Below, piece after piece: positions 45,540-64,000 of a stretch of 64,000 nt of DNA. A program made the translations under genes and the position numbers. Position 1 is the first letter of the stretch, and every line of letters starts with the position of its first letter. The notes under the pieces were generated by a model that saw only the letters and a list, made by a program, of their open reading frames with translations, had not been told where the DNA came from and made no database searches. Origin of the DNA: Candidatus Omnitrophota bacterium (GTDB lineage: Bacteria; Omnitrophota; Gorgyraeia; Gygaellales; Profunditerraquicolaceae); the NCBI GenBank assembly GCA_016208765.1, contig JACQXK010000004.1:84243-148242 (forward strand), read 5' to 3'.

Positions 45540-48500
45540 TTAATTAAGCCACCATCTGCGCCTTAACCAATACGGCATTTGCCCAAATCCAAACGCATAG
45601 CTCTGAGAAAATGTATTAAGTAAACAGCCGTAATTTAAATTTTCATTGCTGTTTCCTTTCATACTTACGGCAGAGCTGGATTTATATGAATGTTTCCCGA
45701 TTTCAGATAGCAGCGCCTCTTGAATAGGAATTATATAGTCTTGATGCGTATATTCAGGAGACTGAGCAATCACGGTTAACTTTTGGCTAAATCTTGTTCT
45801 CTCAAAAAGTATTTTGATAGCGGTAACAATGCGTTCATTTAAGATATCGTTAAACCGTTCTCTGTTTCCACAAGAACTCAATATCCTGAAAGCCGGATCA
45901 ATGTAGCAATTATTTAGTAAAAAATAATCAATGTCAAAATCAAGTATTATATCCGGATAATCTTTTAAGTCGGAGAAATACGGAAGGTCATAAACATGGA
46001 TGACTCTTACATCAGGAATTAAACCTCTATTTTGTCTCCTTGCTTTTATGAGCAATTTCCGGACATTCTTTTGCTCTTTGGCTGGATTCATATAATGAGG
46101 AACAATCCAATACATCCTTGAAATAACCCCATGATAAAATAACGGCATTATCATAGAAGCGCAATCGTATTCAGACCACCAGTTTTGTATGGTATTTTGG
46201 CCGAGGCCATATATACGCGATGGCATACTCAAATCACTATGGGCATCAAAGTGGATTAATGTTGCTCCACGGGAAATTCTGCTTTTCAGCAAATACTCAA
46301 TTACTACGTTATACATCTGGCCGTGATCTACCACCAACCAAAGGCCATCATTGATCATTTTTACGCCTCTTAATATAACACGATCAAAACACTGCATCAT
46401 TGGAGCAAGCTTTACCGGTAGAAAAGTATGACTAACCTCATCAACTACAGCAACTTCAGGGCCGTTTCCTTCTTTCTTTATGGCGGAGCTGGAGTTACGC
46501 TGGAAGTGTCCCCTGTCTTCTGTCGCCGAGGAGGCGCCGCTTGTTAGCTTACCCACTGTCCCGATTGATTTGGAAACAGTTTCCGAGTTGTTCGGGAAAC
46601 TGGGCTCTTTTAGCACCGCCGAGGATGCACCCTCATCGGAATTAAATATTGTGTCCCTGGAATTAAACACTAACCTTATTGACATTCCTCCTGCCATACA
46701 AAGATATCTATATAAATAAAGAACGCCGTTATTCTCAGAATAATCGACTATCATCCCGGATAAATCCACGACATCGCCATTTTTATCCTTCGCATACCCC
46801 CTTATTACCAAACACGTCGGCTGACCTATTTCTTTTCGTGCCAAAAGCAGTTTACGCCGATACATCAGGTGTAAAGTTTCCTCAGTTTGCAACAGCAACA
46901 CTTGTGATAGAGTTTTAATCCTAAATATTTTATATGAACCATTATTAATTGCTTGAGCCCAAAACAATTCGGAGCGAAAACAGGCTGGATATAATAATGA
47001 GCTCCATAATCTGTTTCTGTCTATCCTTTTTGCATCGGCCCCTGCCTCACTTAAATCTACATCTTTAATTAAGGCCAATCGACTACCGCTACAAGCAATG
47101 GCAGAGCCGGAGCTATGCTGGAACAGCCCCCTGTCTTCTGCCGCCGAGGATGCGCCCCATCTTATGCGACCCACTATCCCGATTGATTTGGAAACAGTTT
47201 CCAAGTTGTTCGGGAAACTGGGCCCTTTTAGCACCGCCGAGGAAGCGCCACCGTTAGAATTAAATGTTGTATCCCCAGAATTACCACCAGAGTCCTCATC
47301 TATATACTCAAAAGCCGCATGTCTTATGGTTCTGCCGTTTTTGATCTCGGCAATCGGAATATCTTTGTAATCTTTAATATCAAAAGAAGTATTTACGCCT
47401 GATGATTTAATATGCCACTCCCTAAATGCATTCTCCACTAATCTATCAAGTTCCCCAAAAATTTGTGCTGCGGAAAAGTTTCCTTCTGTTAAACATCTTC
47501 GCTCGCCTTGCCTACAGATAGAGATACTAATAGGGTTTTTTTCAAAACTTGTGCGGACGATAACAATATCCTTGGCCATACCCAGGGATTCTACTATAGG
47601 AGTAGGGTTCCAAATGAACCCTATCTTTCTTAATCCCTCTAACTTAGTAGAAACAAATCTAGATTTACCAGTAGCACTCGTGTCTAATTCTGGATGCACA
47701 TCATCTATCCTCAACACTTTCTCATTTTTAGGATCTACAATCTGCTTTATTTTATTAGATAGATCTCCCAAAGAATAATTCTCGCCAACAACATTTACGA
47801 AGCATGGCATAGAACCTTCAAATTCTTTTATAAGCGAAGCTGCTAGGGCAGCGCAATCCCAAAGAGGAATAAAATTATAATACAGAGCGTTAGCATTTGG
47901 TGGCATTTTAAGAAAACTTCCTTCCAAAATATTCTTTATAAATTTTGACACTATGTCTATAGGTTTACCTTTTTTAAATAATGGAAAAAGGTTGCCCAAT
48001 CGCAAAACAACAGCCCTGAGTCCACTATAGTGCACCCTTCCAGCAATTGCATTTTCTATAATTATTTTACTTAATTCATATGGATGTTCAAGGTTATACC
48101 AACAATCACACTCACCCACTTTTTCCACTGTCTCTCTCTTACCATAAACCCTTAAAGAAGAAGTAAATACTAACCTTGTCGTTTTCATTAAATTCAAGTT
48201 TTTTAAAGCATCTAGAATATTAAAAGCCATTGCAATATTATTAGAAAAGATACTCCTAAATTCATCTTCGCTATAGCTGTTTTGTATTCGACTATCAGAA
48301 GCAAGATGATAAATAAAGCTCGGCCTTACCATACTCAATACTTTTTCCGTAGAAGCATAATCAGTTAAATCACAATGAACAATCTTTACCCTTCCTTCTT
48401 TTACCGCTCTTGAAAGACTACGGTTCAATGGTAAATCTGAAAGATAATCAACCCTGGAGGTGAGAACTGTTATGTCCTCTGCTACTGGATAATCAAGAAG

Positions 48501-48860
48501 TTGTGATAAAACCATAATGCCTAAATGCCCAAGCCCTCCAGTAATCAAAATCTTGTCTTTCTCTTTTCTAGATAAAGTATAGTCAGGCTTGCCTACTGAC
48601 TCTATAAGGTCAAATAATAACGACGCTCCACTCTTCTCGTCTTCCATATCAACATCCAAAGTTATTTTTTCCTTTTCTCCGGATAACGGCAACCATCGCT
48701 CTTCCCGGTCATCAATTTCCATGGCATCTGGAGATGCAAAAGGCAAAACCCCAAATTTTAAAAGCAAGAAAAATATGTCAGCCAACTGAACAAAATGCTT
48801 TCCTTCTAATAGATTACCCTTCAATCTCAATAATGGTATATAATCAACATCTCTTCGCAT
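45540..48860 (-). CDS. Giant multidomain protein (1106 aa): NAD-dependent epimerase/dehydratase, repeat, unknown domain, repeat, arginase/deacetylase-like domain
   Basis: Rossmann motif ILITGGLGHLG (nt ~47570-48545). C-terminal VVDHGQ...HFDAHSD. Two in-frame copies of the repeat family at 46462-46666 and 47098-47284. Confidence 0.6.
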   Translation of the reverse strand: MRRDVDYIPLLRLKGNLLEGKHFVQLADIFFLLLKFGVLPFASPDAMEIDDREERWLPLSGEKEKITLDVDMEDEKSGASLLFDLIESVGKPDYTLSRKEKDKILITGGLGHLGIMVLSQLLDYPVAEDITVLTSRVDYLSDLPLNRSLSRAVKEGRVKIVHCDLTDYASTEKVLSMVRPSFIYHLASDSRIQNSYSEDEFRSIFSNNIAMAFNILDALKNLNLMKTTRLVFTSSLRVYGKRETVEKVGECDCWYNLEHPYELSKIIIENAIAGRVHYSGLRAVVLRLGNLFPLFKKGKPIDIVSKFIKNILEGSFLKMPPNANALYYNFIPLWDCAALAASLIKEFEGSMPCFVNVVGENYSLGDLSNKIKQIVDPKNEKVLRIDDVHPELDTSATGKSRFVSTKLEGLRKIGFIWNPTPIVESLGMAKDIVIVRTSFEKNPISISICRQGERRCLTEGNFSAAQIFGELDRLVENAFREWHIKSSGVNTSFDIKDYKDIPIAEIKNGRTIRHAAFEYIDEDSGGNSGDTTFNSNGGASSAVLKGPSFPNNLETVSKSIGIVGRIRWGASSAAEDRGLFQHSSGSAIACSGSRLALIKDVDLSEAGADAKRIDRNRLWSSLLYPACFRSELFWAQAINNGSYKIFRIKTLSQVLLLQTEETLHLMYRRKLLLARKEIGQPTCLVIRGYAKDKNGDVVDLSGMIVDYSENNGVLYLYRYLCMAGGMSIRLVFNSRDTIFNSDEGASSAVLKEPSFPNNSETVSKSIGTVGKLTSGASSATEDRGHFQRNSSSAIKKEGNGPEVAVVDEVSHTFLPVKLAPMMQCFDRVILRGVKMINDGLWLVVDHGQMYNVVIEYLLKSRISRGATLIHFDAHSDLSMPSRIYGLGQNTIQNWWSEYDCASMIMPLFYHGVISRMYWIVPHYMNPAKEQKNVRKLLIKARRQNRGLIPDVRVIHVYDLPYFSDLKDYPDIILDFDIDYFLLNNCYIDPAFRILSSCGNRERFNDILNERIVTAIKILFERTRFSQKLTVIAQSPEYTHQDYIIPIQEALLSEIGKHSYKSSSAVSMKGNSNENLNYGCLLNTFSQSYAFGFGQMPYWLRRRWWLN
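46462..46666 (-). repeat. Full-length copy of the in-frame repeat (A-part + DR + palindromic core + DR + C-part)
   Basis: ccgtttccttctttctttatggcggagctggagttacgctggaagtgtcccctgtcttctgtcgccgaggaggcgcc...ggaaacagtttcc...caccgccgaggatgcaccctcatcggaattaaatattgtgtccc. Confidence 0.85.
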
Positions 48861-48910
48861 TAATTCGTTAAAGACATCCGGATTACTTGATATAGTTATA
48901 GTCTATGTTT

Positions 48911-51900
48911 CTAAATATTAATATCAATTTGCTTTATCATCTCTCCAAATCTTAAAGTAAGAGCATATGTTCCAGGAGGTAAATTCAAAGTAGCCAAATC
49001 AATTTCCCCTTTAAAGATAAAATACTCGTCGCCATAATAGGAAAACGAGCGTTTCTCATCCAATCTTGCAGGAAAAACTGCAGTCGGATGACCTAAATCG
49101 TCTAAAGTTGGTTCTTTCTTCGCCGTTATTGCCACACCGAGCCACATAGCAAAATCCTCGTCTCCGGGTAAATATATATGAAAAGGAGGATTACCGCAAA
49201 CAAACGGCCGAAAATCTTTTTCTGCATAAAGCTCAAACATTCCTTGTATATGTCTTGCGGCATAGTCAAGGGCTTCGGGCTTAGTCCGAAAAATCGCTTC
49301 CCAAACGTCCAGTTTCACAGCTGCCTCCAAAGAAATCTTGCCATCTGAATTAACCTTAATAATTGTGTCTGGCTCCGGAGAAACTAATGCTGTCCACAGA
49401 TGCGAAACCTCTGCCTTTTGCCAGCGAATTTCCGAATCAGGGTAGATTCTCCTAGCTTCTATCTCTGGCGGAATCATATCTTTCAGTGGCCAAAAATATT
49501 CTCTAGTTTCTTCAAGAGCTGCTTCTTTATAAGTAACCCCCGCAGCAATACCTGTTGCTAAAATAGTTTGCAAATATTCTATTTCGCCATAATTCCCAGC
49601 TTCTCTCAATGCTTCAATTCTTTTATAAAATAATGCAGGCAGAAATTCATCTTTAAACCAGTTGAAAAATATTACTGGATAAGCAACGTTCTGCTCATGT
49701 AAGAATTGCAACAATCTATTTACTCTATTTCCCATAGGTGGACATACCGTGCATTCCATCTTAGGATTAAACCACTTCTTAAAAATACCTCCCATCCTTT
49801 CCCATCCGTCAACAGAAGCAAATCCTTCCCCAAGAGACCCCCCTCTTGAAAAAGCCCTATGGTCACAAGGATAGATTTCTGATGTAGCGCCTAAACAAGT
49901 ACAAAAATAAGCAAACCAACAGCGATCATAATCCGGCTTTCCAATGCCTCTGGATATATCTCTTTCATCATGTATGGTCTCCACCTTAAACCTGCCATCA
50001 GAAAAAGCCATTGATAGATTAAGACTCTCAATAATTTCTTTTTTATCTCTATCATTTAATAAACAGGCTTGATCGGGCCTGATATTAACCTTAAAACGTA
50101 TAAGATCAACGCCTGCTTTCTTAAGCCTTTCTGTTATCTGAACAATGCCTTTAAAATTCTCTTTTCCAATAACATACCCAACGTTTATTGCCAGTTTTGA
50201 GCCAGACTGATTCCTCATATTAACCAGCTCTTCAATATTTCTCATTATTCTTTCAAAATCACCTCTTCTACCTTCTTTCAACTCAAAGAAGCTGTCATTA
50301 CCATAAGCGTCCAAGCTGATATGCACATATTTCGCATAATTCACCAATGTCTCTCTAACTTCTTGGCTCATCAATACACCATTAGTGAATAACCCAACAT
50401 CAAAACCAAGCCTTGACGCTGCTGCTATCCCAAGAAGAGTCGTCTTTTTATTCACTAATGGCTCTCCGAATATGCCGGAAAATTTAATAACTTTCGTTCT
50501 TAATGATGGGGCAGCTTCTTCATTCGCAAGAAAAAAGTTGCAAAGCAACTCTAGTAACCAAAGAGGAGACATTTTTTTCTGAATTTTGCATCTTTCTTTC
50601 TCTCCGATGCAGTGCTTACAGTTTAGATTACACCCACCCGAAGGCTGAACTTCTATTTCATAAGGCAGAAAATCAAATTCCCCATTTAAAATTTTCAAAA
50701 CTCTGTCATATTGCCTTGTAAGTATATTTTCTTCGTAATTAAACTGCGTCCCTGAACGAGATAAGAAAGATTCTAACGCATTCTTCCATTTCACCTTCAA
50801 AGAAAATGATTCTGCTTCTCCACCAACCCCAGAAGATAAGCAACTATCTATTGCAGCAACTTCAGAACCTACACCGTTTCCTTCTTTCTTTATGGCTGAG
50901 CTGGAGTTACGATGGAACTGTCCCTCGTTTTCTAAGGCCGACGAAGCGCCTGCGGCAAAATTAAAACTACAATCTTCAAATCTCATAATCTGCATATCAA
51001 TTTCCTTATCAACAGAAAAATAATCTATATTCTGGTTTCTTGTAGATTTCTCATAAAATACATTTGGTTTGCGAAAGTTCGGCTTAAAATCAAAAATAAC
51101 CCAGTCTTCTTGCCCATAGAAAAGCACTCTCACCCACATATGACCATATACAATTGATTCAGTCCAGATTGCCTGAACATTTTTTATCTTATATTTCCCA
51201 AATTTTTCAAATTGATCAAAGTGCGAATAAAATAATAGCAATATCGCCCTAGAAATAACCCCACAATCATTCTCTCCAACAATTTCATGTAATAAAACGC
51301 CAACAAAATTATGCACAAGAGGATCAACAACAATACGTCCATCAAAAATATCTTGAATTGGATAATTAATTGAATAATCTTTTAAATTTACCTCGGTTAA
51401 ATTACTAAGTTTATTAGTTAAGGGCCGAAATTGCTTATAACGCTTATTCGCAATTAACAACACGTTTCCCCGTCTTTCAAAAATATCATTTTTATTCCAA
51501 TCAAGAACAACGGACGATTCTATTCTTTTCTCCAACGGCGAAGAGACAGCTGTCAAATTAAGCATTGCATCCCCTGAGTTCCTCCCACCTCTTCTTAAAA
51601 ATATTGAATAGAGCCTAAACCATTCTTGCATTAACTCAATCTTATCCCAAAGAAGAATTACAATATTAGAATCAATATTATTACAAAGGATTCCATTGCA
51701 ATCTTCTTTAAAAATTATTGAATCACCATTAAAATATACACAAGAAAATAACCCTGCTTCTTCTAAATATTGAATATACGACCCCTGTTTCCTTCCCCTG
51801 CCAGTAAATATCTCCTCCAAACCAAAACGATGGCTTATAAAAAAGTAGTCCGTTAGCATAAGCGGAATATGAAAGTATATTTTGTAGCCTCCCTTTAAAT

Positions 51901-57900: not shown

Positions 57901-57955
57901 TATCCTTTTGGAGACAATACCTTCTCCAAACCCGCCGCACAAGAAACGCCTTCAT
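48911..57955 (-). CDS. Giant multidomain protein (3014 aa) with at least 7 unrelated segments joined by in-frame repeats; includes a B12-binding radical SAM, a second radical SAM, and a transglutaminase-like Cys protease domain
   Basis: Uninterrupted 9-kb ORF. B12-binding motif DIVGVTATSV...IGGPHFT plus CPYGCIFC at ~52998-53026. CNLNCKHC at 50603-50650. Cys/His/Asp triad DCGVISRA...YGHMWVRV...DWVIFD at ~51.0-51.5 kb. Repeats at 50874, 51548, 52226, 53696, 54812 and 55891. Confidence 0.6.
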   Translation of the reverse strand: MKAFLVRRVWRRYCLQKDICSSGKRFANAAQVLVFFAVSRKHNSPKLFVKATGLSEVFFQITSRALVKKGLLEKFNEFFVLTAQAYEILLKTKTVHAVGKALMPIGRVQRYTSRFTVELLVTGRIRCGINIWAFDIMREDPYLYYSSRRYRVYLPSKKPRLSSYWLFGFYPRSKEEEGYISDQDLKLSYYDFVKRNHPGFISGDICSIFWHREAIRVYHLLAKRRAFIRRSQPSFGRGCTTQRERSPLLLPAAPVSVLHAGEDSCSDKNEIVSALLSPRQERVVNKAVHYIIKYFCKNPGRFRLMTQSNLANNIKTDLSLVTGKYWMQILSRLRQAMDFREFSEDVRARLTIAILIWEGKYAQAIQGYLVYTGQAGISRKEADLGAIAERFSLKEFIIDEHFPVGPSIASSVVEDGSIPPTTQLTAEEKIAAVIKEYKAYLDRIAECPGYHTSLHSAIGYESALNFIRYLQEEGYFSKNEKFCSLFGGGLLAMLVNAVTGIDATRFEINKWIHNEESAIYSKLVQLGAIDPGRVHLVFNDCSSQDLRLYDVFHIYPPLEDGSFFSLALLLSIMQMKNGAVMYLAGFDLRDPLISGLIPPGTLDVDKDIQEIGVFGNMHLYRRVTSSPVGNSGGAILNLETGNSFQIVRETVSKSIGTVGKLTSGASSATEDRGQLHYNSSSAIKTEGNGAMDIIKKSNRTDLKQETKIKIKLWVSNFWEIVHEPEYLRLFADAHIIKMLYRLGLCEEALYEKIKKSYKIISGPSRIFGYKGYPALFTSGIFRRPLLWDGRMFLIIISNEIVFGNAEAITSLPHEERINLGRPVRMQECRLKYVAAEIGHLVLCQILKGRVTKVDAGVHETLDVISQMLAVPQLWENYDYRKEEKVFTAIMMIGQNGENPITRYAHIKQIPLVNVLQETKEEIIFEALNDHLSFQELRDDIKNDDSFFSHCVGKFLAKHFTKISGGLDAALKIIGEILVQDDLAWAKDFRVLKRIFEDKVHGGNSGDIILNSNDGASSAVLKKPSFPNNLETVSKSIGTVGKRGASSAVDKGAFSLTQGGKDLMSLGINYSRVVRTESEFRQLVAIPIGLEIELSQRHSENECNLRGIAAILPTKEECCGTSWEDEDKHLNLVEIKTRPAWSPAIQVLTLGKIMQNACLRKEDIVSVQVNVGVRAYQYNLIHKDIKKMLLRDLEWLMFDVVVAYVSDKRIQFKKTGKTVRFRKQAEYLEERKYCRFEYGFADIENSAKIITTLYWGHACIFYYYYYIVANKMKMKDGELDFRHQLAFIGENICEQLHNEEIRKGAKVNLSRALTFVDLIGWRDENPEEIRAIQPVLDTLIFGCQEVFRRHARNEVSYRRSRSSSAVGSFWGTTLNNSGDTIFNSDEGASSAVLKEPSFPNNLETVSESIGTVGKRGASSAVNKRILLIDTQPLPNLRADSIVSTYLSSILRDPQLFSKIFPGSRMPEYEVKILCLMTGFDRLRGEAARLRLKNVFAEFNPDIVGVTATSVSIREAVQAAGIAKEYNPEIITLIGGPHFTLLPIEVLQASEFDIGFAGQAEEALVRAVYILAKYGFVSDQLSRVQGIIFKDKSGNKQTTAIVDNRKQIIHFRPDDFPFAANSLDLLKDALGDSRNISRFGMMTSFGCPYGCIFCASNVWGKAIKSRSIPHVMQELIYLRSQGIFFIVFFDDTFTLNPQRITSLCQEFIRVGLGIKWICHSRADCLSRELLKLMQQAGLVGINIGVETGDQDLLNKIGKGVDLKTVRLVTKWAQDLGLFIGHYYLVGLPGQTIASVQKTIDFISISQPNFIELATLIPYPGLDFQGRVRFVGGKKFGPVDNFPDRNFFHTETDLLTSEQVRSAFRLIVAAFKDTQNQRRLRDWVDLANSIPGSHNSCNSGDTIFNSDEGASSVVKIAGAAEIEEDIKKLIRGNIPTYLLYTHLIIKKADSLSTLKWLEFAGYVYDPLQEFNPHGDIDSLKIIEILQKHKDCPTIFVHVGGSMNYCMVQNFGIFLKSLIASNYLKGGYKIYFHIPLMLTDYFFISHRFGLEEIFTGRGRKQGSYIQYLEEAGLFSCVYFNGDSIIFKEDCNGILCNNIDSNIVILLWDKIELMQEWFRLYSIFLRRGGRNSGDAMLNLTAVSSPLEKRIESSVVLDWNKNDIFERRGNVLLIANKRYKQFRPLTNKLSNLTEVNLKDYSINYPIQDIFDGRIVVDPLVHNFVGVLLHEIVGENDCGVISRAILLLFYSHFDQFEKFGKYKIKNVQAIWTESIVYGHMWVRVLFYGQEDWVIFDFKPNFRKPNVFYEKSTRNQNIDYFSVDKEIDMQIMRFEDCSFNFAAGASSALENEGQFHRNSSSAIKKEGNGVGSEVAAIDSCLSSGVGGEAESFSLKVKWKNALESFLSRSGTQFNYEENILTRQYDRVLKILNGEFDFLPYEIEVQPSGGCNLNCKHCIGEKERCKIQKKMSPLWLLELLCNFFLANEEAAPSLRTKVIKFSGIFGEPLVNKKTTLLGIAAASRLGFDVGLFTNGVLMSQEVRETLVNYAKYVHISLDAYGNDSFFELKEGRRGDFERIMRNIEELVNMRNQSGSKLAINVGYVIGKENFKGIVQITERLKKAGVDLIRFKVNIRPDQACLLNDRDKKEIIESLNLSMAFSDGRFKVETIHDERDISRGIGKPDYDRCWFAYFCTCLGATSEIYPCDHRAFSRGGSLGEGFASVDGWERMGGIFKKWFNPKMECTVCPPMGNRVNRLLQFLHEQNVAYPVIFFNWFKDEFLPALFYKRIEALREAGNYGEIEYLQTILATGIAAGVTYKEAALEETREYFWPLKDMIPPEIEARRIYPDSEIRWQKAEVSHLWTALVSPEPDTIIKVNSDGKISLEAAVKLDVWEAIFRTKPEALDYAARHIQGMFELYAEKDFRPFVCGNPPFHIYLPGDEDFAMWLGVAITAKKEPTLDDLGHPTAVFPARLDEKRSFSYYGDEYFIFKGEIDLATLNLPPGTYALTLRFGEMIKQIDINI
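53696..53834 (-). repeat. Representative copy of the in-frame modular repeat (DR-core-DR-C form)
   Basis: caccgccgaggaggcacc + tcgcttacccactgtcccgattgattcggaaacagtttccaagttgttcgggaaactgggctcttttag + caccgccgaggatgcacc + ctcatcggaattaaatattgtgtccccggaatt. It is about 90 % identical to copies at 46462, 47098, 54812, 55891 and 60921. Confidence 0.85.
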
Positions 57956-59714
57956 CAGAATCAGATGCTACATCATCAGGAATACCCGAGAATATGTCTC
58001 TGGAAATAATTGGGCTGCTTGCATCTATCCTGTCCGCGCGGAATATCAGGCTGACAACCGTAGAATTAGGGACAAGATTGACAATACTCACATGCCCGTC
58101 TAAAAAAGCTTTGGCAAAATTCAACACATGAGTTAGCCCTAAACCATTGGCTCCCTGCTCTCCTTTCTTATTTTTGCTTCTGCCGAGGCCTTCAACAAAA
58201 AATAATGCAACTAACCCATTCATTTCAACATAATTATCTATATCTTTCAATGCCCTCTCAAGATCGATCAGGCGCTCAAATCTATGAGAATTATTCTTCA
58301 GGTATTCTCCTTGCTCAGGTATCCCGAGGATTTCAACGATAAGTTGACCTGTTATTTTGTCGCGCCAAAGCTTTTTTCTATCGGCCTGTTTTTTTATTTT
58401 TGAATATAGCTCGTCCAGAACAAAATGATCTATATTCCCCTGGTTCTCAACGCTTAACTTAAATACACCTGTAGTTGGTTCTGATAAATTTATCCTGATA
58501 ACGCCTGACAAGTTTTCATCGTGGGCATTCTTCAAAAGCTCCCCAATTAAGAATCTCAGCATGAATTCAAGACCTTTCTCAAGAATAAGTTGCCTGTCTG
58601 CGTAGTTAATTATGCCTGCGGTATCAAGTTTCCAATAAACTTTGAGGCGTTGATTAACACCAGAGTATTCAATAGAATTGTGTTTTAAGAAAGGGAATCC
58701 GTCTATAATATGATTTAGCAAATCAGAAAAGTCAATTTCTGCTAAAAACGTATATTTGCTGAATGACCTTATTCTATTTATAGCCTTATTTTCTGCCAAG
58801 AGTTGTTCATTATCAAGACCGTTTCCTTCTTTCTTTATGGCAGAGCTGGAGTTATAATGGAGCTGCCCCTTGTCTTCTGCCGCCGAGGAGGCGCTTCGTG
58901 AATAGAGGGCTCTTAAAGCAACGTGGAGCAGAAAGGCCCTCCCATACCATTGATTATAGCCTATATCGAGTTTCCTAAAGATACTCATAAGCGCCTTATC
59001 AACTTCAACGGTTCGCGCGGAGAGCTCGGAAGAATCATTGATTATACATGAGAGAAGATTATCTCCAATTATACTGAGTTCTTCCTCAACTCTGCCTATG
59101 CCTTTCCAGAAGGCAGCTTCGTACTTCTCTTGCATAGAGAATAAACTCCCAGACTCAGGATACATCAACCTCCCTATTGATCTTTGCTCTGCCAACAATT
59201 CTTTATTAGCCAAGAGCACAAATACACCTTCTTCTCTCCAGAAAGAAAAGGACACCCCTGCAGGATAGGTAAGATAACTAAACTTACCCCAATTATTTCT
59301 GAAAGACATCAAATCGACGTTCTCAAAACAATCCAATAATAGCTCTATGTTCCTAGCAATGCATAGTTGTGCTTCAGCGTCAACCAGAACCCTATCTGCA
59401 GGATAATTGTCCTCTGGGCCATATGGCCCCTCTTTTACAAGTTTTCCAAAAGGTTCGCGCAAAAACTCCGGCAGCTCAAGTTCTTTTAGATATCTTAAAT
59501 TATGCTTGAATCTCCCAAGCTTATTTAAAACCGCTCCATCCTTTATATCCGAAAAATCAAATGTACGGCAATACCTGACCTTTGATAAAAATTGTAACGT
59601 ACGTGATGGCTCCAATGCAGAAATTCCAAATTCTGCACCTAAATATGGTCCGGCCGCACATTGCAGGGTTATCGGTCCTTTAGCGTGGTAATCAAGCCTC
59701 TTCTTAAATTCCAC
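57873..59714 (-). CDS. Multidomain protein (613 aa) with an internal repeat copy and a C-terminal GHKL/histidine-kinase-like ATPase domain
   Basis: Bergerat-fold motifs LLKNAHDENLSGVIRINL ... GANGLGLTHV. Repeat A-part at 58819-58895. The frame stays open upstream through the repeat at 59729-59785 up to a TAG. Confidence 0.5.
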   Translation of the reverse strand: MEFKKRLDYHAKGPITLQCAAGPYLGAEFGISALEPSRTLQFLSKVRYCRTFDFSDIKDGAVLNKLGRFKHNLRYLKELELPEFLREPFGKLVKEGPYGPEDNYPADRVLVDAEAQLCIARNIELLLDCFENVDLMSFRNNWGKFSYLTYPAGVSFSFWREEGVFVLLANKELLAEQRSIGRLMYPESGSLFSMQEKYEAAFWKGIGRVEEELSIIGDNLLSCIINDSSELSARTVEVDKALMSIFRKLDIGYNQWYGRAFLLHVALRALYSRSASSAAEDKGQLHYNSSSAIKKEGNGLDNEQLLAENKAINRIRSFSKYTFLAEIDFSDLLNHIIDGFPFLKHNSIEYSGVNQRLKVYWKLDTAGIINYADRQLILEKGLEFMLRFLIGELLKNAHDENLSGVIRINLSEPTTGVFKLSVENQGNIDHFVLDELYSKIKKQADRKKLWRDKITGQLIVEILGIPEQGEYLKNNSHRFERLIDLERALKDIDNYVEMNGLVALFFVEGLGRSKNKKGEQGANGLGLTHVLNFAKAFLDGHVSIVNLVPNSTVVSLIFRADRIDASSPIISRDIFSGIPDDVASDSDEGVSCAAGLEKVLSPKGYLFLRQALC

Positions 59715-59746
59715 TGCCGAAGAGGCAGGACCGTTTCCTTCTTTCT

Positions 59747-62700
59747 TTATGGCAGAGCTAGAGTTATAATGGAGCTGTCCCTTGTACCACTAAAATCTGA
59801 TTTACTCAAAGTTTGCCTCTTAATTCGCGAACTATTCCGCTTCCACCTATTGACTATGCCATCGCTTTCGATCTCAATAACTAAATTATTAATTGACGTT
59901 GCCATTCTTGCCACAGCCAAGCCTAAACCACGGCCCTCTAAACCGATGTTTACCTTTGTAGAATATAAATACTTTAAAACATTCCTAATTGCGAATCCTG
60001 AGAGATTTACTCCTTGATTAGAAATCTCAATAACGATTTCATCCTTATTGCGGCGGAATATCCTGCCTTCCACTGTTGTTCCAGGGTAAGCAGCGCTCAA
60101 TGCGTTCCGGATAACTTCGTATATAGCGTTTGCTATGTCGTCCTCCGTAAGAAAAAATTGCGCTTCTTTTAGGGCGGACTCAATTTTAAAATCATAAATA
60201 TACCGCTTGCCAAGAACATTCGCCAAATCTTGTAATTCCTCGCCAACCATCAATCCCCTTATCATCGGGAGAATCTTGACCCAGGAAAGCCCAAACCCTT
60301 CATATAATTCATGCAAGCGAGGGCTTTGAAACCTATACCTTTCTTCATTAGCCGGATCTCTCTCAATAACATTGAAATAGAATATCCTAGCCGTCCTATA
60401 AATTACGCGTATTACTTTTAAATAAAGGTCCATTAAATAAAAGTAGCGTTGTTTATTCAAGGCTATGACTTTTTTGTCTTTCATAAAAGTAGGGAATTCA
60501 TCGACCAAATCATATAAATTAGTCATAATAAGCCCCAAAGTCGGATCGGCGTAATCTCTTTTAATTAATTCTTCTCCATTTCCTTTGTCATATATATCCA
60601 ATAATTTACTGATAAGTTGATTTACTCTATTCTTGCTGTAATCAGTTTTACTACTTTGACCATGATCTGGAAACACCGAATTAAAATTACCGATGAGCTT
60701 TTGAAGCCCTTTAAGATATTTGGAAAGATAACGATCATATAATTTTATCGCCTCCTCCATAGCTATCCTCTCATTACCGATATTTTGCAAAGCGCTCACC
60801 TTACCAATTACCCGAAAAATTAATCGCTTCTTGATGCTAAAGATAAGCCTCTCAAAATGCTCTCTGAAATATTTCAAGAAAAGCTTAGTAAATAAATAAG
60901 CTGGTTCTGTTTTTTCCTCCGCAGCCGAGGAAGCGCCCCGCTTACCCACTGTCCCGATTGATTCGGAAACAGTTTCCAAGTTGTTCGGGAAACTGGGTCC
61001 TTTTAGCACCGCCGAGGATACGCCCTCGTTAGAATTAAGTATTGTGTCCCCGGAATTACGCTGATCTAAATACCAAGATAAAAAACGCTCAGTTGACCAC
61101 CAATAAAATAGAGCACCATCGGAATGATTAAAACCCTCCCAAAAATATCTTTCATTAAGAGCAAAATTATAGAAAACCCCCTTATGATGCAAAAGATAAT
61201 GAAAATACAAATTATCCTTAATTGCGGCTTTAGAAAAATGCTTTCTTATTGAAAACCCCGGAGTTCCGTAAATAGTATCGAAGATAAAATGAAAAGTAGC
61301 CCGTAATTTAGCGTTCTTTCTCAGCTCTGCGGCCCAAAGGAACCATTGCCAATGGCAAGATTCAAAATAACCGCCTGAGACGATAAAATCTGTAGCTTGC
61401 GGATCTAAAACAAAATCCTTGAGCTTATCTTTATCAACAGCAGGATCAACAATCAATTCATTATGCGGCTTCAAACAAGAATAATGACCTTGCCGGAGAA
61501 TTTCTAAATTTCGGCCACAACCTAATCCTGTCTGCTTCATTAGATTTTCAATACCAACCTGTTTTCGTGAATCTTCAGCGTCAATGATGATATGCCGCAC
61601 ACCGTTAAAACACTCAAGAGGACGCATAGATGAAGAAGCATAACCCCATATAGAAGATATACCTTTGCTATCTTTGAATTCCTTTAATCCAAGCCTAACA
61701 ATCCGCTCCTGTGTCCGCTTCCTTTGAACCTCTATCCACTCTGATGCTTCTTGCTTGGTCAATGTTAAATTCTGAGTGCCGTCACCTTTAGACAATTTTT
61801 TCTCTCCAAGGGGCCGGACAACCGAATTAAAATAATTAAAAATATCAGCAAAACGCTGTCTAACGGCGTACACAGAGATATATTCCATGCTATTACAACC
61901 TATTATTTCTTGAAAGGCAGCCATAGTTAACTCGGTTCCCAATCCCCTGCCTCTGTAATCAGGGGCAATATCTATATAATGGATACTCCCAAAGAAATAT
62001 AGATATCCTTTGAATTCGCCAAATTCTCCATCCTCCAGAGATATGGCTAAACGTACAGAACGTAAAAAATCAAGCCTTAAATCACCGCCCATTTCTTCTC
62101 TTTTACCTTGTTCTAATTTTCTTATAAACCATTCCAAAGAATCATTTAGTTCGTCAAGCATCCTTTTACTATCTTCTGTTTTCCTGTCGTTCTTATTAAA
62201 ATAATTAGAATACCAATGATATAATCCAAGCACAGCAAACCGGCATTGAAATATACTGAGCCTATCAGCGGGAACATATAATAAGGGAACCATTTTCCTG
62301 CCCTCGCTGTCAAGCGTATATATAAGATCCCGGTAATGCCTTTGTGGCTCATATGAATTGTAGCAGGCAAGACTGGTTTTCTCTCCCACCGCCGAGGAGA
62401 CGGATTCTTTTCCGGAAAAATATGAAGCCGGACGCGTGCCAATAATTGCCAATGCGTCATCACCACTTTTATGAACCACCCATTTCCTTAAATAAAATTC
62501 CCCTGGCCTTGGCGAACTCCAGTAAGTTTCATTTGTATTAACGCGTATTCCAATAATTCCCACATCTACATTTATTGCCTTTCTTTTCTTGTTAACCAGA
62601 AAATGTTTAGTATCAGGAGTGTGGGCAACTATCTGAGGCACGCTTGCTTCAAGAAACCAGAAACGTATGTCAAAAATACCATGGTGTGTGCGCTTATTCC

Positions 62701-64000
62701 AATGGCCTCCGCTTATTACAGGATGATCATAATTATTACTTATTACCGCTCGCTTAAAAATAATATTAAATTTATTAACCAGGCTATCCAAATTTTTGTT
62801 GCCGCAAAAATCTTTATCTACACCCGCATGGACAACTATCCTGTCTTCAATGCGCAATGCTGCAATACTTCTTTCTTTTGTCACTGCTTGGCGAATTCTA
62901 TTTTTCCATTTATCAGCAATCTTAGTGGTCCATTCCTGCGTATATTGCCTACCGATAAAATTTTGAAGTTCTTTTGGAACTTCAATTCTTTCCGATACAT
63001 ACATACCCTGCCTATCTGCTTCCTGAGAATCCCTATGATGCAAGTTAGCTAAATAGTTTAATTCGTGATTTCCTGCCAAGCGCAATACTTTACCGCCGAG
63101 TCTTGAAGCTTCTGCTTCTTTCTGCAATTTTGCAAGAATCTCCCAGCAAATTATTGCGCCCATCTCTGGATGCACATCTAGCACATCACCTGTCTGAACC
63201 AAAATAGCATCTCCGGCAATCCATTTAAGCTTGGCTATAATTCTTCTTGCCTCTTCCAATGTCTCACAAAACATTAATTTATTGGCATTATCCGGAGAGA
63301 TAAATCCTGCCCTCCTGAGAATTAAAACCAACGTTTTCCATTTGGCATGCAGATCCCCGATAATTAACCCGCGTAGTTTTATATCCGAAGGCAGACTATT
63401 AATCATCCCCGAACCTATCAAAGCATTCAAAGGAATAAACCCCATCTCCCTTTGACGAATTAATTCTAAAATTTTGGTTATTCTTTTTTCTTTCTGGGTG
63501 GCGTCTAAATTCAACAAATCGTAGCCTAATCTGATAAAAGCCGGGATACGCGGCTTACTTTCTTGCATTGCACAGATAGGACTAGTGGAGTGATTTAAAG
63601 GCAGTATAAAATTAACTTGAGTTCCATAAAAAGCATGTTCTCCTTCTTTAATTTCCGGAGGAGATCTCCCGCTGACAGTCAGGCATAAGCTACTAGCAGT
63701 TTCAGGGCAGTTTCTTTCTTTCTTTACGGCAGAGCTGGAGTTATAAAGAAACTGTCTACTGCTTTCTACAGCTAAAAAGGTGTGATTACTATGCAGCATA
63801 AACTCATAAATCGCGATTACTTCCCCCTTATTCTTGCAATATTGAGCTGCTTCTGCAATTGTAAAAGCATGTTCATTAGCTAGCTCATACAAAACCGCAG
63901 AACGTGCTTGCGGGAAAATAATATATAGCCTGCCTTCGTTAGGGTACAAACGATTAACAGCGCCAGCAAATAAACGCCGCAATGTTTTATAATCCTGGTC
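59747..64000 (-). CDS. Giant multidomain protein (at least 1411 aa; the 5' end lies beyond the window): metallophosphoesterase, GNAT acetyltransferase, C-terminal GHKL ATPase-like domain, and at least 3 repeat copies
   Basis: Metallophosphoesterase motifs GDLHAKW...GDVLD...GNHE (~62990-63350). GNAT IDIAPDYRGRGLGTEL (61925-61985). GLEGRGLGLAVARM (59890-59950). Repeats at 60921-61057 and 63709-63765. The ORF terminates in the repeat at 59729-59785 in a shifted frame. Confidence 0.5.
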   Translation of the reverse strand, partial: DQDYKTLRRLFAGAVNRLYPNEGRLYIIFPQARSAVLYELANEHAFTIAEAAQYCKNKGEVIAIYEFMLHSNHTFLAVESSRQFLYNSSSAVKKERNCPETASSLCLTVSGRSPPEIKEGEHAFYGTQVNFILPLNHSTSPICAMQESKPRIPAFIRLGYDLLNLDATQKEKRITKILELIRQREMGFIPLNALIGSGMINSLPSDIKLRGLIIGDLHAKWKTLVLILRRAGFISPDNANKLMFCETLEEARRIIAKLKWIAGDAILVQTGDVLDVHPEMGAIICWEILAKLQKEAEASRLGGKVLRLAGNHELNYLANLHHRDSQEADRQGMYVSERIEVPKELQNFIGRQYTQEWTTKIADKWKNRIRQAVTKERSIAALRIEDRIVVHAGVDKDFCGNKNLDSLVNKFNIIFKRAVISNNYDHPVISGGHWNKRTHHGIFDIRFWFLEASVPQIVAHTPDTKHFLVNKKRKAINVDVGIIGIRVNTNETYWSSPRPGEFYLRKWVVHKSGDDALAIIGTRPASYFSGKESVSSAVGEKTSLACYNSYEPQRHYRDLIYTLDSEGRKMVPLLYVPADRLSIFQCRFAVLGLYHWYSNYFNKNDRKTEDSKRMLDELNDSLEWFIRKLEQGKREEMGGDLRLDFLRSVRLAISLEDGEFGEFKGYLYFFGSIHYIDIAPDYRGRGLGTELTMAAFQEIIGCNSMEYISVYAVRQRFADIFNYFNSVVRPLGEKKLSKGDGTQNLTLTKQEASEWIEVQRKRTQERIVRLGLKEFKDSKGISSIWGYASSSMRPLECFNGVRHIIIDAEDSRKQVGIENLMKQTGLGCGRNLEILRQGHYSCLKPHNELIVDPAVDKDKLKDFVLDPQATDFIVSGGYFESCHWQWFLWAAELRKNAKLRATFHFIFDTIYGTPGFSIRKHFSKAAIKDNLYFHYLLHHKGVFYNFALNERYFWEGFNHSDGALFYWWSTERFLSWYLDQRNSGDTILNSNEGVSSAVLKGPSFPNNLETVSESIGTVGKRGASSAAEEKTEPAYLFTKLFLKYFREHFERLIFSIKKRLIFRVIGKVSALQNIGNERIAMEEAIKLYDRYLSKYLKGLQKLIGNFNSVFPDHGQSSKTDYSKNRVNQLISKLLDIYDKGNGEELIKRDYADPTLGLIMTNLYDLVDEFPTFMKDKKVIALNKQRYFYLMDLYLKVIRVIYRTARIFYFNVIERDPANEERYRFQSPRLHELYEGFGLSWVKILPMIRGLMVGEELQDLANVLGKRYIYDFKIESALKEAQFFLTEDDIANAIYEVIRNALSAAYPGTTVEGRIFRRNKDEIVIEISNQGVNLSGFAIRNVLKYLYSTKVNIGLEGRGLGLAVARMATSINNLVIEIESDGIVNRWKRNSSRIKRQTLSKSDFSGTRDSSIITLALP

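What the first reader, a model, noticed from the sequence alone, without database searches (positions are those of the whole stretch)
46462..63765. About 13 copies of a modular, partly palindromic DNA repeat inserted only in-frame and only in one orientation inside coding sequence
The repeat is conserved at ~90 % nucleotide identity while the flanking coding sequence is unrelated, which behaves like a recently spreading DNA element rather than an ancient protein domain. It is modular: an A-part (ccgtttccttctttctttatggcagagctggagttataatggagctgtcccctgtcttctgccgccgaggaggcgcc), a C-part (ctcatcggaattaaatattgtgtccccggaatt), and an optional ~75-nt imperfect-palindromic core centred on GGAAACAGTTTCC. 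The core is bracketed by an 18-nt direct duplication caccgccgagga(g/t)gcacc, which resembles a target-site duplication. A-only copies lie at 50874, 58819, 59729 and 63709. C-only copies lie at 52226 and 51548. Core-containing copies lie at 46462, 47098, 53696, 54812, 55891 and 60921; the copy at 55891 has an internal re-duplication of the palindrome. The other two sense-strand frames of the element contain stop codons, whereas the reverse orientation is also open (plus-strand ORFs 46480-46719 and 53628-53891). Despite that, all copies share one orientation and one frame. This is analogous to the Rickettsia palindromic elements that insert in-frame into genes, but with a distinct sequence and a nested structure.
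Basis: seen in the sequence. Interest (0 to 1): 0.88.

Follow-up and report, generated by a model that had tools for sequence, protein, structure and literature searches.

The report
Palindrome-bearing linkers of a giant gene
The repeat is real: it is a linker cassette joining whole enzymes inside a giant multi-enzyme gene cluster of an uncultured Omnitrophota bacterium, and its palindromic centre belongs to a family of small repeats that elsewhere lie between genes, which gives a first handle on where such giant proteins are divided into parts.

Summary
The repeat exists as described: 6 core-containing, 4 A-only and 2 C-only copies, plus 3 degenerate ones, all on the minus strand. The window comes from a Candidatus Omnitrophica MAG. 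The host "genes" are four collinear huge ORFs totalling about 9,900 aa, and every copy sits between enzyme-sized modules.

The cassette has three layers:
- **Junction motif.** A 5-residue motif x-S-S-(A/P)-(V/I) is 20-30x enriched in this and other Omnitrophota giant ORFs.
- **A and C peptides.** These were found in this genome only (one 30-nt intergenic match to C elsewhere) and are under moderate purifying selection (pN/pS 0.35-0.5).
- **Palindromic core.** This ~55-70-nt core evolves under nucleotide-level constraint (pN/pS about 1). It belongs to an interspersed repeat family found on about 90 metagenome contigs, where 75 of 83 copies are non-coding.

"In-frame only" is largely survivorship. 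Only one sense frame is stop-free, and the one out-of-frame copy ends an ORF. Copies are recombinant mosaics.

The Rickettsia-palindromic-element analogy holds for the core only. Whether the junctions are cleaved is untested.

The parts
59747..64000 (-). ORF4: C-terminal 1411 aa of a 5170-aa protein (P0099) that runs off the window; modules include metallophosphatase-like, GNAT and HATPase_c
   Evidence: the C-terminus of P0099 is identical to this ORF
57873..59714 (-). ORF3, 613 aa; its frame is the standard A-part frame and is open from a TAG just upstream of the A-part
48911..57955 (-). ORF2, 3014 aa (NCBI MBI4706703.1, annotated as 2981 aa); about 7 modules including a B12-binding radical SAM and a second radical SAM
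45540..48860 (-). ORF1, 1106 aa: NAD-epimerase module, an unknown module and a UPF0489 module
46462..46664 (-). Full cassette C-core-A (NSRDTIFNSDEGASSAV LKEPSFPNNSETVSKSIGTVGKLTSGASSAT EDRGHFQRNSSSAIKKEGNG); core hairpin about 46552-46604, 13-mer at 46572-46584
47098..47282 (-). Cassette C-core-degenerate A; 13-mer at 47190-47202
53696..53833 (-). Cassette C-core-GASSAV, immediately upstream of the B12-rSAM module; 13-mer at 53741-53753
54812..54949 (-). Cassette C-core-GASSAV; 13-mer at 54857-54869
55891..56068 (-). Cassette with degenerate C, two 13-mer palindromes (56000-56012, 56023-56035; perfect 13-bp stem) and an A-part followed by GAAGGAAAT-N8-ATG
60921..61057 (-). Cassette C-core-GASSAA in ORF4; 13-mer at 60965-60977
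50874..50953 (-). A-only copy (GASSALENEGQFHRNSSSAIKKEGNG)
58819..58898 (-). A-only copy in ORF3
59729..59790 (-). A-only copy at the ORF4/ORF3 boundary; ORF4 reads it in another frame (DSSIITLALP*) and takes its TAA stop (59747-59749) from it
63709..63765 (-). Diverged A-like copy (YNSSSAVKKERNC)
52223..52273 (-). C-only copy (NSGDTIFNSDEGASSVV) at the C-terminal end of the B12-rSAM module
51530..51580 (-). Degenerate C-like copy (NSGDAMLNLTAVSSPL)
45641..45686 (-). Degenerate A-like copy near the end of ORF1 (KSSSAVSMKGNS)
57933..57984 (-). Degenerate C-like copy at the C-terminus of ORF3, inside or next to the 83-nt ORF3/ORF2 overlap
62372..62402 (-). Lone junction motif (ESVSSAVGEK) with no A, C or core

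Best explanation
Window 45.5-64 kb is the 3' part of a giant multi-enzyme gene cluster of a Candidatus Omnitrophica MAG. It comprises four collinear minus-strand ORFs of 5170, 613, 3014 and 1106 aa. Complete, normally stand-alone enzymes are joined by a repeated linker cassette with three layers.

1. **Junction motif.** A short motif [A/S/V/T/G]-S-S-[A/P]-[V/I/A/L/M] is shared with giant ORFs of other Omnitrophota. It is placed just upstream of a module's native N-terminus, often in pairs around a 10-40-aa spacer.
2. **A and C peptides.** These are lineage-specific and under moderate purifying selection.
3. **Palindromic core.** Nested in the spacer is a ~55-70-nt imperfect palindrome. It is an inverted pair of the unit GGAAAC(T/A)GTTTCC-N5-AATCGGGA(C/A)AGTGGG. 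It belongs to an interspersed, mostly intergenic REP/MITE-like repeat family of Omnitrophota and is conserved as nucleic acid, not as peptide.

**Shown:** the anatomy, the selection pattern, the family distribution and the mosaic structure of the copies.

**Inferred:**
- The core entered or was retained in spacers because spacers are disordered and tolerant, and because in this frame it encodes a stop-free hydrophilic peptide (ETVSKSIG).
- Cassettes were multiplied and homogenised within the cluster by recombination or gene conversion through the conserved core. This keeps their orientation.
- "In-frame only" is survivorship, since any other frame terminates the ORF, as at 59.75 kb.
- The junction motif is most likely a processing or boundary signal of a polyprotein. 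The core hairpin may act on the giant mRNA or on DNA. Neither role is demonstrated.
For: **Source.** ORF2 is 100% identical to NCBI MBI4706703.1, from a Candidatus Omnitrophica MAG.

**Modules are whole genes**
- Pfam domains lie between cassettes.
- The 475-aa B12-rSAM segment has only stand-alone homologues, mostly 415-550 aa. Their Met aligns 2 residues after GASSAV, and their C-termini end where the C-part begins.
- In the AF2 model, linker residues 1-20 have pLDDT 31-36 and the first strand starts right after the motif.

**Junction motif**
- 19 hits in the window ORFs and 3-11 per ORF in L002, L003, L076, L006 and L082, against 0.03-0.3 in shuffles.
- 3.2-4.5 per 1000 aa in P0099, P0094, P0097 and P0101, against 0.146 per 1000 aa in 225 stand-alone proteins.
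- Serine codons switch between AGC and TCN.
- No motif hit falls inside a reported Pfam domain match in those ORFs.
- It occurs in pairs or triplets with no core between them (P0099 aa 3588-3630).

**Core**
- Within-window identity is 95% and pN/pS is 0.99, against 0.35 (C) and 0.50 (A).
- Similarity to other contigs is confined to the core.
- It occurs in 2 Omnitrophota GTDB genomes and on about 90 metagenome contigs.
- 75 of 83 copies are not embedded in an ORF. Six are in giant open frames, all reading ETVS, and one of those is antisense.
- Interspersed ~135-nt palindromic copies have unique flanks.
- The core folds as a long imperfect hairpin, z -2.1 to -2.3.

**Survivorship and recombination**
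- Each cassette has only one open sense frame, and the out-of-frame copy terminates ORF4.
- Copy 46664 is 96% identical to copy 53833 on the left but 100% identical to copy 56068 over 60 nt on the right.
Against: - No protease, cleavage product or transcript end supports any function for the motif or the core.
- There is no covariation support for the hairpin: 66 of 500 shuffles reach the observed score.
- Intergenic copies are not enriched for terminator-like T-runs.
- No intergenic copy of the core lies in the 45 kb of ordinary genes in this window. That this genome also carries intergenic copies is therefore unshown.
- The core-less C+A junction with a single motif copy fits a real insertion with duplication as well as it fits a deletion between direct repeats.
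- The motif's TCG and CCG codons are strongly over-used (p = 4e-13 and 2e-6). A purely protein-level reading does not explain this.
- Not every module boundary carries the motif, for example ORF2|ORF1 and the epimerase N-terminus.
Confidence: 0.6

Rival explanations
1. One reading: the whole modular A-core-C repeat is a selfish, recently spreading RPE-like mobile DNA that inserts in-frame into coding sequence. The 18-nt direct repeat is its target-site duplication.
For: - The core is an interspersed repeat with both intergenic and translated copies.
- Core copies are 92-97% identical while their flanks are unrelated.
- A core-less C+A junction with one motif copy exists (P0099 aa 1840-1886).
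- RPEs set a precedent for in-frame palindromes (PMC10969869).
Against: - A and C have pN/pS of 0.50 and 0.35, and no match outside this genome apart from one 30-nt C-like intergenic stretch in L033.
- The "TSD" sequence encodes a motif that recurs without any insert in several genomes and with different codons.
- All copies are at module boundaries of giant ORFs and none is in the 36 ordinary genes of the window.
- An 18-nt TSD would be unusually long.
- No TSD is visible at the two L045 intergenic copies.
- All window copies share one orientation although an antisense frame is open.
- Copies are recombinant mosaics.
Confidence: 0.15
2. Relic-spacer origin ("stop-less operon"): the giant ORFs arose by loss of stop codons between neighbouring operon genes. 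On this view the cassettes are former intergenic regions, including their REP-like palindromes and a decayed ribosome-binding site in the A-part. This concerns origin and is compatible with the best explanation.
For: - Modules are complete genes whose Met position lies 2 residues after the linker.
- The A-part ends in an unstructured purine run AAAGAAAGAAGGAAAC (fold z +0.8 to +1.7). This resembles the genome's own AAGGAGGAAA ribosome-binding sites, and it carries a TAA that ORF4 uses as its stop.
- The 55.89-kb copy keeps GAAGGAAAT-N8-ATG. The L006 junction keeps GGAGG-N8-ATG followed by a signal-peptide-like start.
- In other contigs the same palindromes lie between co-directional genes (L033); the left neighbour is co-directional in 40 of 57 cases, p = 0.003.
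- L056 has two full sigma-70 gene sets inside one 4460-aa ORF.
Against: - SD+ATG/GTG sites are not enriched after junction motifs (1.2x, p = 0.59).
- The junction motif and the C and A parts are under amino-acid-level constraint, which a dead spacer would not be.
- No syntenic relative with separate genes and the same spacers was found.
Confidence: 0.3
3. The repeat is purely a duplicated protein linker or mini-domain, with no DNA- or RNA-level element. High nucleotide identity reflects recent duplication only.
For: - A and C show a synonymous excess.
- The cassette is always translated in one frame in this window.
- Gene-conversion tracts can explain high identity.
Against: - Core pN/pS is 0.99, with differences spread evenly over codon positions.
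- The same 21 specified bases are conserved on about 90 contigs, where 75 of 83 copies are non-coding.
- In L006 it is translated from the opposite strand.
- The peptide module has no homologue among 5.8 billion proteins.
- The linker is predicted to be disordered.
Confidence: 0.06
4. Assembly or sequencing artefact: collapsed or chimeric repeats, or frameshift errors, create false giant ORFs.
For: - The ORF4/ORF3 and ORF3/ORF2 boundaries look like single frameshifts.
- The source is a MAG.
Against: - Copies differ from one another at 3-24% of positions and have unique flanks.
- A 9-kb frame without stops cannot arise by error in a 40% GC genome.
- Independent contigs from other samples show the same architecture.
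- NCBI annotates the same proteins.
Confidence: 0.02

Closest known systems
Rickettsia palindromic elements (RPE; Ogata et al. 2000, as summarised in PMC10969869)
   Same: A small palindromic repeat family with copies both between genes and translated in-frame inside ORFs, adding a conserved peptide to the host protein. The peptide itself is apparently not the selected unit.
   Different: - Different phylum and no sequence relation was tested.
- The core here is shorter (~55-70 nt against ~100-150 bp).
- Translated copies lie only in spacers between whole enzyme modules of giant ORFs, flanked by a separate junction motif. They are not in surface loops of ordinary metabolic genes.
- Most copies seen (75 of 83) are intergenic.
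- The window copies look multiplied by recombination rather than by independent insertion.
REP / BIME elements of Proteobacteria (with RAYT transposases)
   Same: 20-40-nt imperfect palindromes, mostly extragenic, often clustered in alternating orientation between co-directional genes, and able to form hairpins.
   Different: - No RAYT was examined, and no GTAG head is evident in the sequences.
- REPs are not normally translated.
- Here the units are arrays of a perfect 13-mer palindrome plus an AATCGGGA(C/A)AGTGGG box.
Bacterial MITEs that carry ORFs (ERIC, BOX, Correia/NEMIS)
   Same: Size (intergenic copies ~100-135 nt), overall inverted symmetry, interspersed copies with unique flanks, and occasional in-frame fusion with host ORFs.
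   Different: No target-site duplication or parent insertion sequence was identified, and the ends are poorly defined.
Omnitrophota giant proteins: "multi-enzyme metabolic cluster" class (bioRxiv 10.64898/2026.06.07.730766) and Archaeovorins (bioRxiv 10.1101/2023.11.21.568195)
   Same: Same phylum. Very long ORFs are tiled by many unrelated enzyme domains, including radical SAM, response regulators and kinases. Cleavage into several products has been proposed.
   Different: - The ORFs here are smaller (1-5 kaa each, about 9.9 kaa together).
- Term searches of those two papers found no mention of linkers, motifs at junctions, palindromes, stop codons or polyproteins. West-Roberts et al. state that cleavage points are unknown.
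Viral polyproteins with conserved cleavage sites and spacer peptides
   Same: Whole functional proteins in one ORF, separated by a short recurring motif of small residues. The motif sometimes occurs twice around a short spacer peptide.
   Different: No cognate protease was identified and no cleavage was shown. The host is a cellular genome and the modules are metabolic or regulatory enzymes.

Membership tests
Rickettsia palindromic elements (RPE-like protein-coding palindromes) | Palindromic repeat of about 100-150 bp present in many copies | tested here: inconclusive
   The core palindrome is about 55-70 nt and intergenic composites are about 100-135 nt. More than 90 copies were found across contigs.
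Rickettsia palindromic elements (RPE-like protein-coding palindromes) | Copies inserted in-frame in unrelated protein-coding genes and translated | tested here: inconclusive
   The core is in-frame in giant ORFs on the window and on 5 other contigs. It occurs only at module junctions of giant ORFs, never in ordinary genes. Translation itself was not tested.
Rickettsia palindromic elements (RPE-like protein-coding palindromes) | Sequence homology to RPE-1 to RPE-10 | not tested
   No RPE reference sequences were available in the tools, and Rfam gave no hit in the window.
MITE | Short non-autonomous interspersed element with unique flanks | tested here: met
   L045 (two copies), L046, L061 and L088 share about 135 nt and then diverge on both sides.
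MITE | Terminal inverted repeats | tested here: inconclusive
   The whole element is an imperfect palindrome. In L045 the ends ATAC..CTGTTTCCA and TGGAAACAG..GTATA are roughly inverted.
MITE | Target-site duplication | tested here: not met
   No direct repeat is evident at the flanks of the two L045 copies. The 18-nt repeat in the window is a junction motif that also occurs without the element.
MITE | Parent insertion sequence or transposase with matching ends | not tested
   No search for transposases was made in the loci.
REP/BIME | Short imperfect palindromes, predominantly extragenic | tested here: met
   75 of 83 non-redundant copies are not embedded in an ORF. Examples lie between lepB-like and the next gene (L033) and between smpB and ssrA (L001).
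REP/BIME | Clusters of units in alternating orientation | tested here: met
   Arrays of GGAAACTGTTTCC / GGAAACAGTTTCC at about 23-24-nt spacing. There are 159 exact 13-mers in 455 kb of loci.
REP/BIME | Associated RAYT (IS200/IS605-like) transposase | not tested
   Whole genomes would be needed.
Polyprotein with site-specific processing | Complete functional proteins concatenated in one ORF | tested here: met
   The B12-rSAM module equals a full stand-alone enzyme. Epimerase homologues are also stand-alone. L056 holds two sigma-70 sets.
Polyprotein with site-specific processing | Short conserved motif at junctions | tested here: met
   x-S-S-[A/P]-[V/I] is 20-30x enriched and lies outside the Pfam domain matches. 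Not every junction has it.
Polyprotein with site-specific processing | Cognate protease and demonstrated cleavage | not testable with these tools
   The HExxH module in P0099 has no Pfam match and its AF2 model has pLDDT 41. No proteomic data were available.
Omnitrophota multi-enzyme giant genes | Omnitrophota origin | tested here: met
   MBI4706703.1 is a Candidatus Omnitrophica MAG. Both GTDB hits for the core are Omnitrophota.
Omnitrophota multi-enzyme giant genes | Many distinct enzyme families tiling one very long ORF | tested here: met
   Epimerase, UPF0489, B12-rSAM, rSAM, GNAT and HATPase_c. ORF4 is 5170 aa. Each ORF is below the >=10-kaa classes of the 2026 preprint.
Known structured RNA families (Rfam) | Match to a curated covariance model | tested here: not met
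   No hit at gathering threshold anywhere in the window. There is no covariation in the proposed hairpin.

The most novel reading that the evidence does not exclude
Omnitrophota multi-enzyme giant genes are stop-less operons. On this reading, whole genes are joined by translated spacers that carry a conserved x-S-S-(A/P)-(V/I) boundary signal where the polyprotein is cut (or translation or folding is punctuated). The lineage's REP-like intergenic palindromes persist inside these spacers. There they act on the giant mRNA or DNA (segment stability, pausing, or recombination that shuffles modules). The motif would then give the first sequence rule for predicting the parts of these giant proteins.
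Probability: 0.25. Interest if true: 0.85.

Novelty: new variant of a known kind. Interest (0 to 1): 0.68.

Why it matters
Giant Omnitrophota genes are a current puzzle. It is not known whether they act as single proteins or are cut into parts, and the authors who described them state that no cleavage points are known.

This locus gives two concrete handles:
- A short junction motif, 20-30x enriched and shared between contigs, sits at the native N-termini of complete enzymes. It could be used to segment giant proteins for structure prediction and to look for semi-specific peptides in proteomes.
- A family of small palindromic repeats is mostly intergenic but is also translated inside the junction spacers. 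This is a second, independent case of "protein-coding palindromes" outside Rickettsia.

The mosaic copies also suggest how modules might be shuffled, namely by recombination through the shared linker. If the junctions are not processed, the result is more modest: a well-documented example of repeats tolerated in disordered linkers.

Tried and rejected
- **Peptide homology.** The 68-aa cassette peptide shares no words with any of 5.8 billion proteins.
- **Fetching the source contig.** Exact look-ups of window proteins and of P0094 and P0099 failed. DNA upstream of the window could therefore not be read.
- **Rfam.** No family matched in the window.
- **Internal re-initiation.** SD+ATG/GTG sites are not enriched within 45 codons after junction motifs (1.2x, p = 0.59). 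I rejected this as a general mechanism.
- **Programmed frameshift at the A-part.** No canonical slippery site is evident by inspection, so I did not pursue it.
- **Intrinsic terminator role for intergenic copies.** TTTT follows 10 of 76 copies against an 18% background. Rejected.
- **RNA covariation.** RNAalifold found no compensatory pairs. The named outer stem is no better than shuffles.
- **Cis-encoded protease.** The HExxH module of P0099 has no Pfam match and its AF2 pLDDT is 41. This was a dead end.
- **Viral origin.** Neither the core nor the A-part is in IMG/VR contigs.
- **TSD at intergenic copies.** None was seen in L045.
- **A and C parts elsewhere.** BLAST of whole cassettes against 455 kb of related loci matched only the core. 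A single 30-nt C-like intergenic stretch occurs in L033.
- **Literature.** There is no paper on ASSPV or SSSPV motifs, or on palindromic intergenic repeats in Omnitrophota, in the library.

Full report
**1. What is in the sequence**

A 23-nt stretch of the core occurs six times against 0.00 expected. The 13-nt perfect palindrome GGAAACNGTTTCC occurs seven times against 0.16 expected. All of these lie between 46.5 and 61.0 kb, and none is in the first 45 kb.

All copies are on the minus strand, inside four very long collinear minus-strand ORFs:

| ORF | Coordinates | Length |
|---|---|---|
| ORF1 | 45540-48860 | 1106 aa |
| ORF2 | 48911-57955 | 3014 aa |
| ORF3 | 57873-59714 | 613 aa |
| ORF4 | 59747 to the window end | at least 1411 aa |

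Read in the sense direction, the full cassette is:
- C-part: NSGDTIFNSDEGASSAV
- core: LKEPSFPNNLETVSKSIGTVGK(R/LTS)
- A-part: GASSA(T/A)EDRGQLHYNSSSAIKKEGNG

I also found three degenerate pieces at 45641-45686, 57933-57984 and 62372-62402.

Identity differs by module: C 86%, core 95%, A 83%. In each core-containing cassette only one sense frame is free of stops, and one antisense frame is open in five of six.

One statement of the finding is wrong. ORF4 reads the A-copy at 59729-59790 in a different frame (…DSSIITLALP*) and takes its TAA stop from inside that copy. ORF3 continues in the usual A-frame (…NSSSAIKKEGNGPASSAVEFKK…).

ORF3 and ORF2 overlap by 83 nt next to a degenerate C-like piece. 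ORF2 and ORF1 are separated by a plain 50-nt spacer.

**2. What the host genes are**

ORF2 is 100% identical to NCBI protein MBI4706703.1, [quoted passage not shown], from a 225-kb contig. ORF4 is the C-terminal 1411 aa of a 5170-aa protein, P0099. The four ORFs together encode about 9,900 aa.

Pfam domains lie between the cassettes: NAD-epimerase, UPF0489, B12-binding radical SAM, a second radical SAM, GNAT and HATPase_c.

I tested one module in detail, the 475-aa B12-radical-SAM segment bounded by two cassettes:
- Its homologues are all stand-alone proteins, mostly 415-550 aa.
- Their initiator Met aligns two residues after the GASSAV that ends the upstream cassette.
- Their C-termini end about where the downstream C-part starts.
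- In an AlphaFold model (pTM 0.75) the linker residues have pLDDT 31-36, and the first β-strand begins right after the motif.

The epimerase module likewise matches stand-alone epimerases from their residue 2-3 onward.

The genes downstream in the window are ordinary separate genes with AAGGAGG ribosome-binding sites: a sugar ABC transporter, GH2, ROK kinase, a LacI regulator and ribonucleotide reductase.

This matches the "multi-enzyme metabolic cluster" class of Omnitrophota long proteins. Term searches of that preprint and of West-Roberts et al. found no mention of linkers, junction motifs, palindromes, stop codons or polyproteins. West-Roberts et al. state that cleavage points are unknown.

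**3. The core is a nucleic-acid element with relatives elsewhere**

A scan of one genome per species found the core in two genomes, both Omnitrophota MAGs:
- In L001, two tandem units lie between smpB and the tmRNA gene.
- In L002, the core is in-frame (…IKETVSKSIGTVGNGASSAV…) in an ORF that stays open across all 8 kb held.

A looser pattern found about 90 metagenome contigs. Of 83 non-redundant copies:
- 75 are not embedded in any ORF.
- 6 lie in giant open frames of 890 to more than 4,400 codons.
- 2 lie in short, probably spurious ORFs.

Intergenic copies are arrays of the 13-mer at about 23-24-nt spacing, ending in AATCGGGA(C/A)AGTGGG. In L045, L046, L061 and L088 they form an interspersed ~135-nt imperfect palindrome with unique flanks. 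The window's core is an inverted pair of this unit.

BLAST of whole cassettes against the related loci matches only the core.

Among window copies the core has pN/pS 0.99, with differences spread evenly over codon positions. The C and A parts have pN/pS 0.35 and 0.50. These are small, non-independent samples.

All six embedded copies outside the window read the palindrome as E-T-V-S. This includes L006, where the element is translated from the opposite strand as PTVPIESETVS. The chance of one shared frame is about 0.004.

The core folds as a long imperfect hairpin (z -2.1 to -2.3). There is no covariation support for it, and intergenic copies are not followed by T-runs more often than background. 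Left neighbours are co-directional in 40 of 57 cases (p = 0.003).

**4. The "target-site duplication" is a junction motif**

The 18 nt on each side of the core encode GASSAV. The pattern [AGSTV]-S-S-[AP]-[VIALM] is strongly enriched in giant ORFs:

| Sequence | Hits | Comparison |
|---|---|---|
| Window ORFs | 19 | |
| L002 | 8 | shuffles give 0.03-0.3 per ORF |
| L003 | 11 | |
| L006 | 5 | |
| L082 | 11 | |
| L076 | 3 | |
| P0099, P0094, P0097, P0101 | 3.2-4.5 per 1000 aa | 0.146 per 1000 aa in 225 stand-alone proteins |

Further properties of the motif:
- Outside the window it is mostly ASSPV or SSSPV, with serine codons switching between AGC and TCN. There is no conservation beyond the five residues at either the amino-acid or nucleotide level. 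It is therefore selected mainly as peptide.
- No motif hit falls inside a reported Pfam domain match in those ORFs.
- It often occurs twice or three times around 10-40-aa spacers that contain no core. Examples are L002 aa 720/739, L082 aa 3312/3340, and P0099 aa 3588-3630 of the window's own protein.
- One oddity remains. The third and fourth codons are TCG and CCG far more often than the background usage (22/38, p = 4e-13; 27/36, p = 2e-6).
- Other giant proteins (P0095, P0109, P0123, P0130) lack the motif, so it is lineage-specific.

**5. How the copies multiplied**

P0099 contains a C+A junction with a single motif and no core: NSGDAIFNSRNDTSSAAEDKGRFHHNSSSAIRIKGNG. This fits insertion of the core with duplication. 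It fits deletion between the direct repeats equally well.

The cassettes are mosaics. Copy 46664 is 96% identical to copy 53833 over the 81 nt left of the palindrome, but 100% identical to copy 56068 over the 60 nt to the right. Meanwhile the left side of 56068 is unrelated. This is the signature of recombination or gene conversion through the conserved core. It explains both the high nucleotide identity and the uniform orientation without repeated transposition.

Uniform frame is what selection must leave, because the other sense frames contain stops. The single out-of-frame copy coincides with the end of ORF4.

**6. Mechanism: shown and inferred**

Shown:
- A three-layer cassette at boundaries of complete enzyme modules.
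- Peptide-level constraint on the motif and on the A and C parts.
- Nucleotide-level constraint on the core.
- A mostly intergenic family of relatives.
- Recombinant copies.

Inferred:
- The spacers tolerate the palindrome because they are disordered.
- The motif is a boundary or processing signal of a polyprotein. The argument is a conserved short motif of small residues at native N-termini, paired around spacers, joining enzymes that have no reason to be tethered. L056 even holds two complete sigma-70 sets inside one 4460-aa ORF.
- The hairpin may act on the giant mRNA or serve as a recombination substrate.

I found no protease. The HExxH module in P0099 gave no Pfam match and a pLDDT of 41. 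I also found no general signal for internal re-initiation.

An origin of the cassettes as former intergenic spacers is plausible but unproven. Three things point that way: the A-part's unstructured AAAGAAGGAAAC tail, its TAA, and the two junctions that keep an SD-N8-ATG.

**7. Comparison and verdict**

The closest known things are Rickettsia palindromic elements (in-frame palindromes), REP/BIME elements and ORF-carrying MITEs.
- The core works like these, but membership is unproven. There is no TSD, no transposase was examined, and no homology was tested.
- It differs from RPEs in sitting only in junction spacers of giant ORFs.
- The cassette as a whole is not a mobile element.

I rate this a new variant of a known kind. 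Its added value is the junction motif, which makes the question "are Omnitrophota giant proteins cut, and where?" directly testable.

Noticed in passing
window 59729-59790 and 57873-57955: ORF4 ends on a TAA inside an A-part read in another frame. ORF3 and ORF2 overlap by 83 nt in different frames. Either could be a real gene break or a 1-nt error, and restoring one base would fuse the ORFs.
   Followed up: partly
junction motifs in window ORFs and L002, L003, L006, L076, L082: The third and fourth codons of the motif are TCG and CCG (GCG in the window) far more often than the local codon usage: 22/38 against about 10%, and 27/36 against about 36%. This is a nucleotide-level or translation-speed signal that the peptide reading does not explain.
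   Followed up: partly
L056 138-13517 (same sequence in L029 and L038): A 4460-codon open frame contains two complete sigma-70 domain sets (regions 1.2, 2, 3, 4) and a PrmA-like methyltransferase. The palindromic core lies between modules, but this ORF lacks the SSP/SSA motif.
   Followed up: partly
P0095 (4816 aa) and P0123 (1940 aa), proteins from the homology searches: Other multi-enzyme giants show different short recurring peptides between modules: RSE[MSV]R[ST] in P0095 and L[SN]M[AVT]L[LI]P in P0123. This suggests lineage-specific junction signals.
   Followed up: no
L004, L005, L014, L024, L052, L077, L087, L091 and others: A second intergenic palindrome, CTGCCTGCCGGCAGGCAG, gives 15 hits in 11 loci. 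Ten of these lie within 76 nt of a GGAAACNGTTTCC 13-mer, so the intergenic arrays are composites of at least two repeat types.
   Followed up: partly
L001 2898-3404: Two tandem core units sit between smpB and a 426-nt tmRNA gene (Rfam 166 bits) in an Omnitrophota MAG.
   Followed up: partly
L006 around aa 1099-1150 of the 1921-codon frame: The junction reads VSSPV, then the palindrome translated from the opposite strand, then GGAGG-N8-ATG and a signal-peptide-like start (MAIRAPPIFKKSVILSLVALGVF). This is a complete intergenic-looking region lacking only a stop codon.
   Followed up: partly
window 48861-48910; P0098, P0100, P0101: The SPASM-type radical SAM and the NAD-epimerase are fused in one ORF in three other proteins. 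In the window they are split by a TAG and 50 nt (ORF2|ORF1), and neither ORF1 nor ORF2 has a recognisable ribosome-binding site.
   Followed up: no
P0109 aa 1307 and P0130 aa 2889; RAPP also in L006, L082 and P0098: A recurring small module "RAPP … YHELISH" (HExxH) appears in several giant proteins. P0099 has a different HExxH module (aa ~1695) with no Pfam match and a low-confidence model.
   Followed up: partly
window C-part, A-part and core (e.g. 46655, 46515, 46560): The string GGGGACA (GGGACA in the core) occurs in all three modules but is read in three different frames (G-D-T, R-G-Q, I-G-T). This hints that A and C may also descend from the same DNA repeat unit.
   Followed up: no
L033 about 6780-6811 (+ strand coordinates): A 30-nt stretch matching the 5' half of the C-part at 25 of 30 positions, including 17 consecutive identical bases, lies in an intergenic region about 160 nt upstream of a gene start. 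It is the only trace of the C-part outside the window.
   Followed up: partly
L082 aa 3312-3340 and 3657-3698: Spacers between paired junction motifs contain another repeated sequence (…LGSRSWVLGSRV… / …LGSGFSSSRVRGS…). Spacers may therefore host several kinds of short repeats.
   Followed up: no
window 1-64000: Nearly all long ORFs are on the minus strand, and GC skew is negative throughout (cumulative -5.5 over 64 kb).
   Followed up: no
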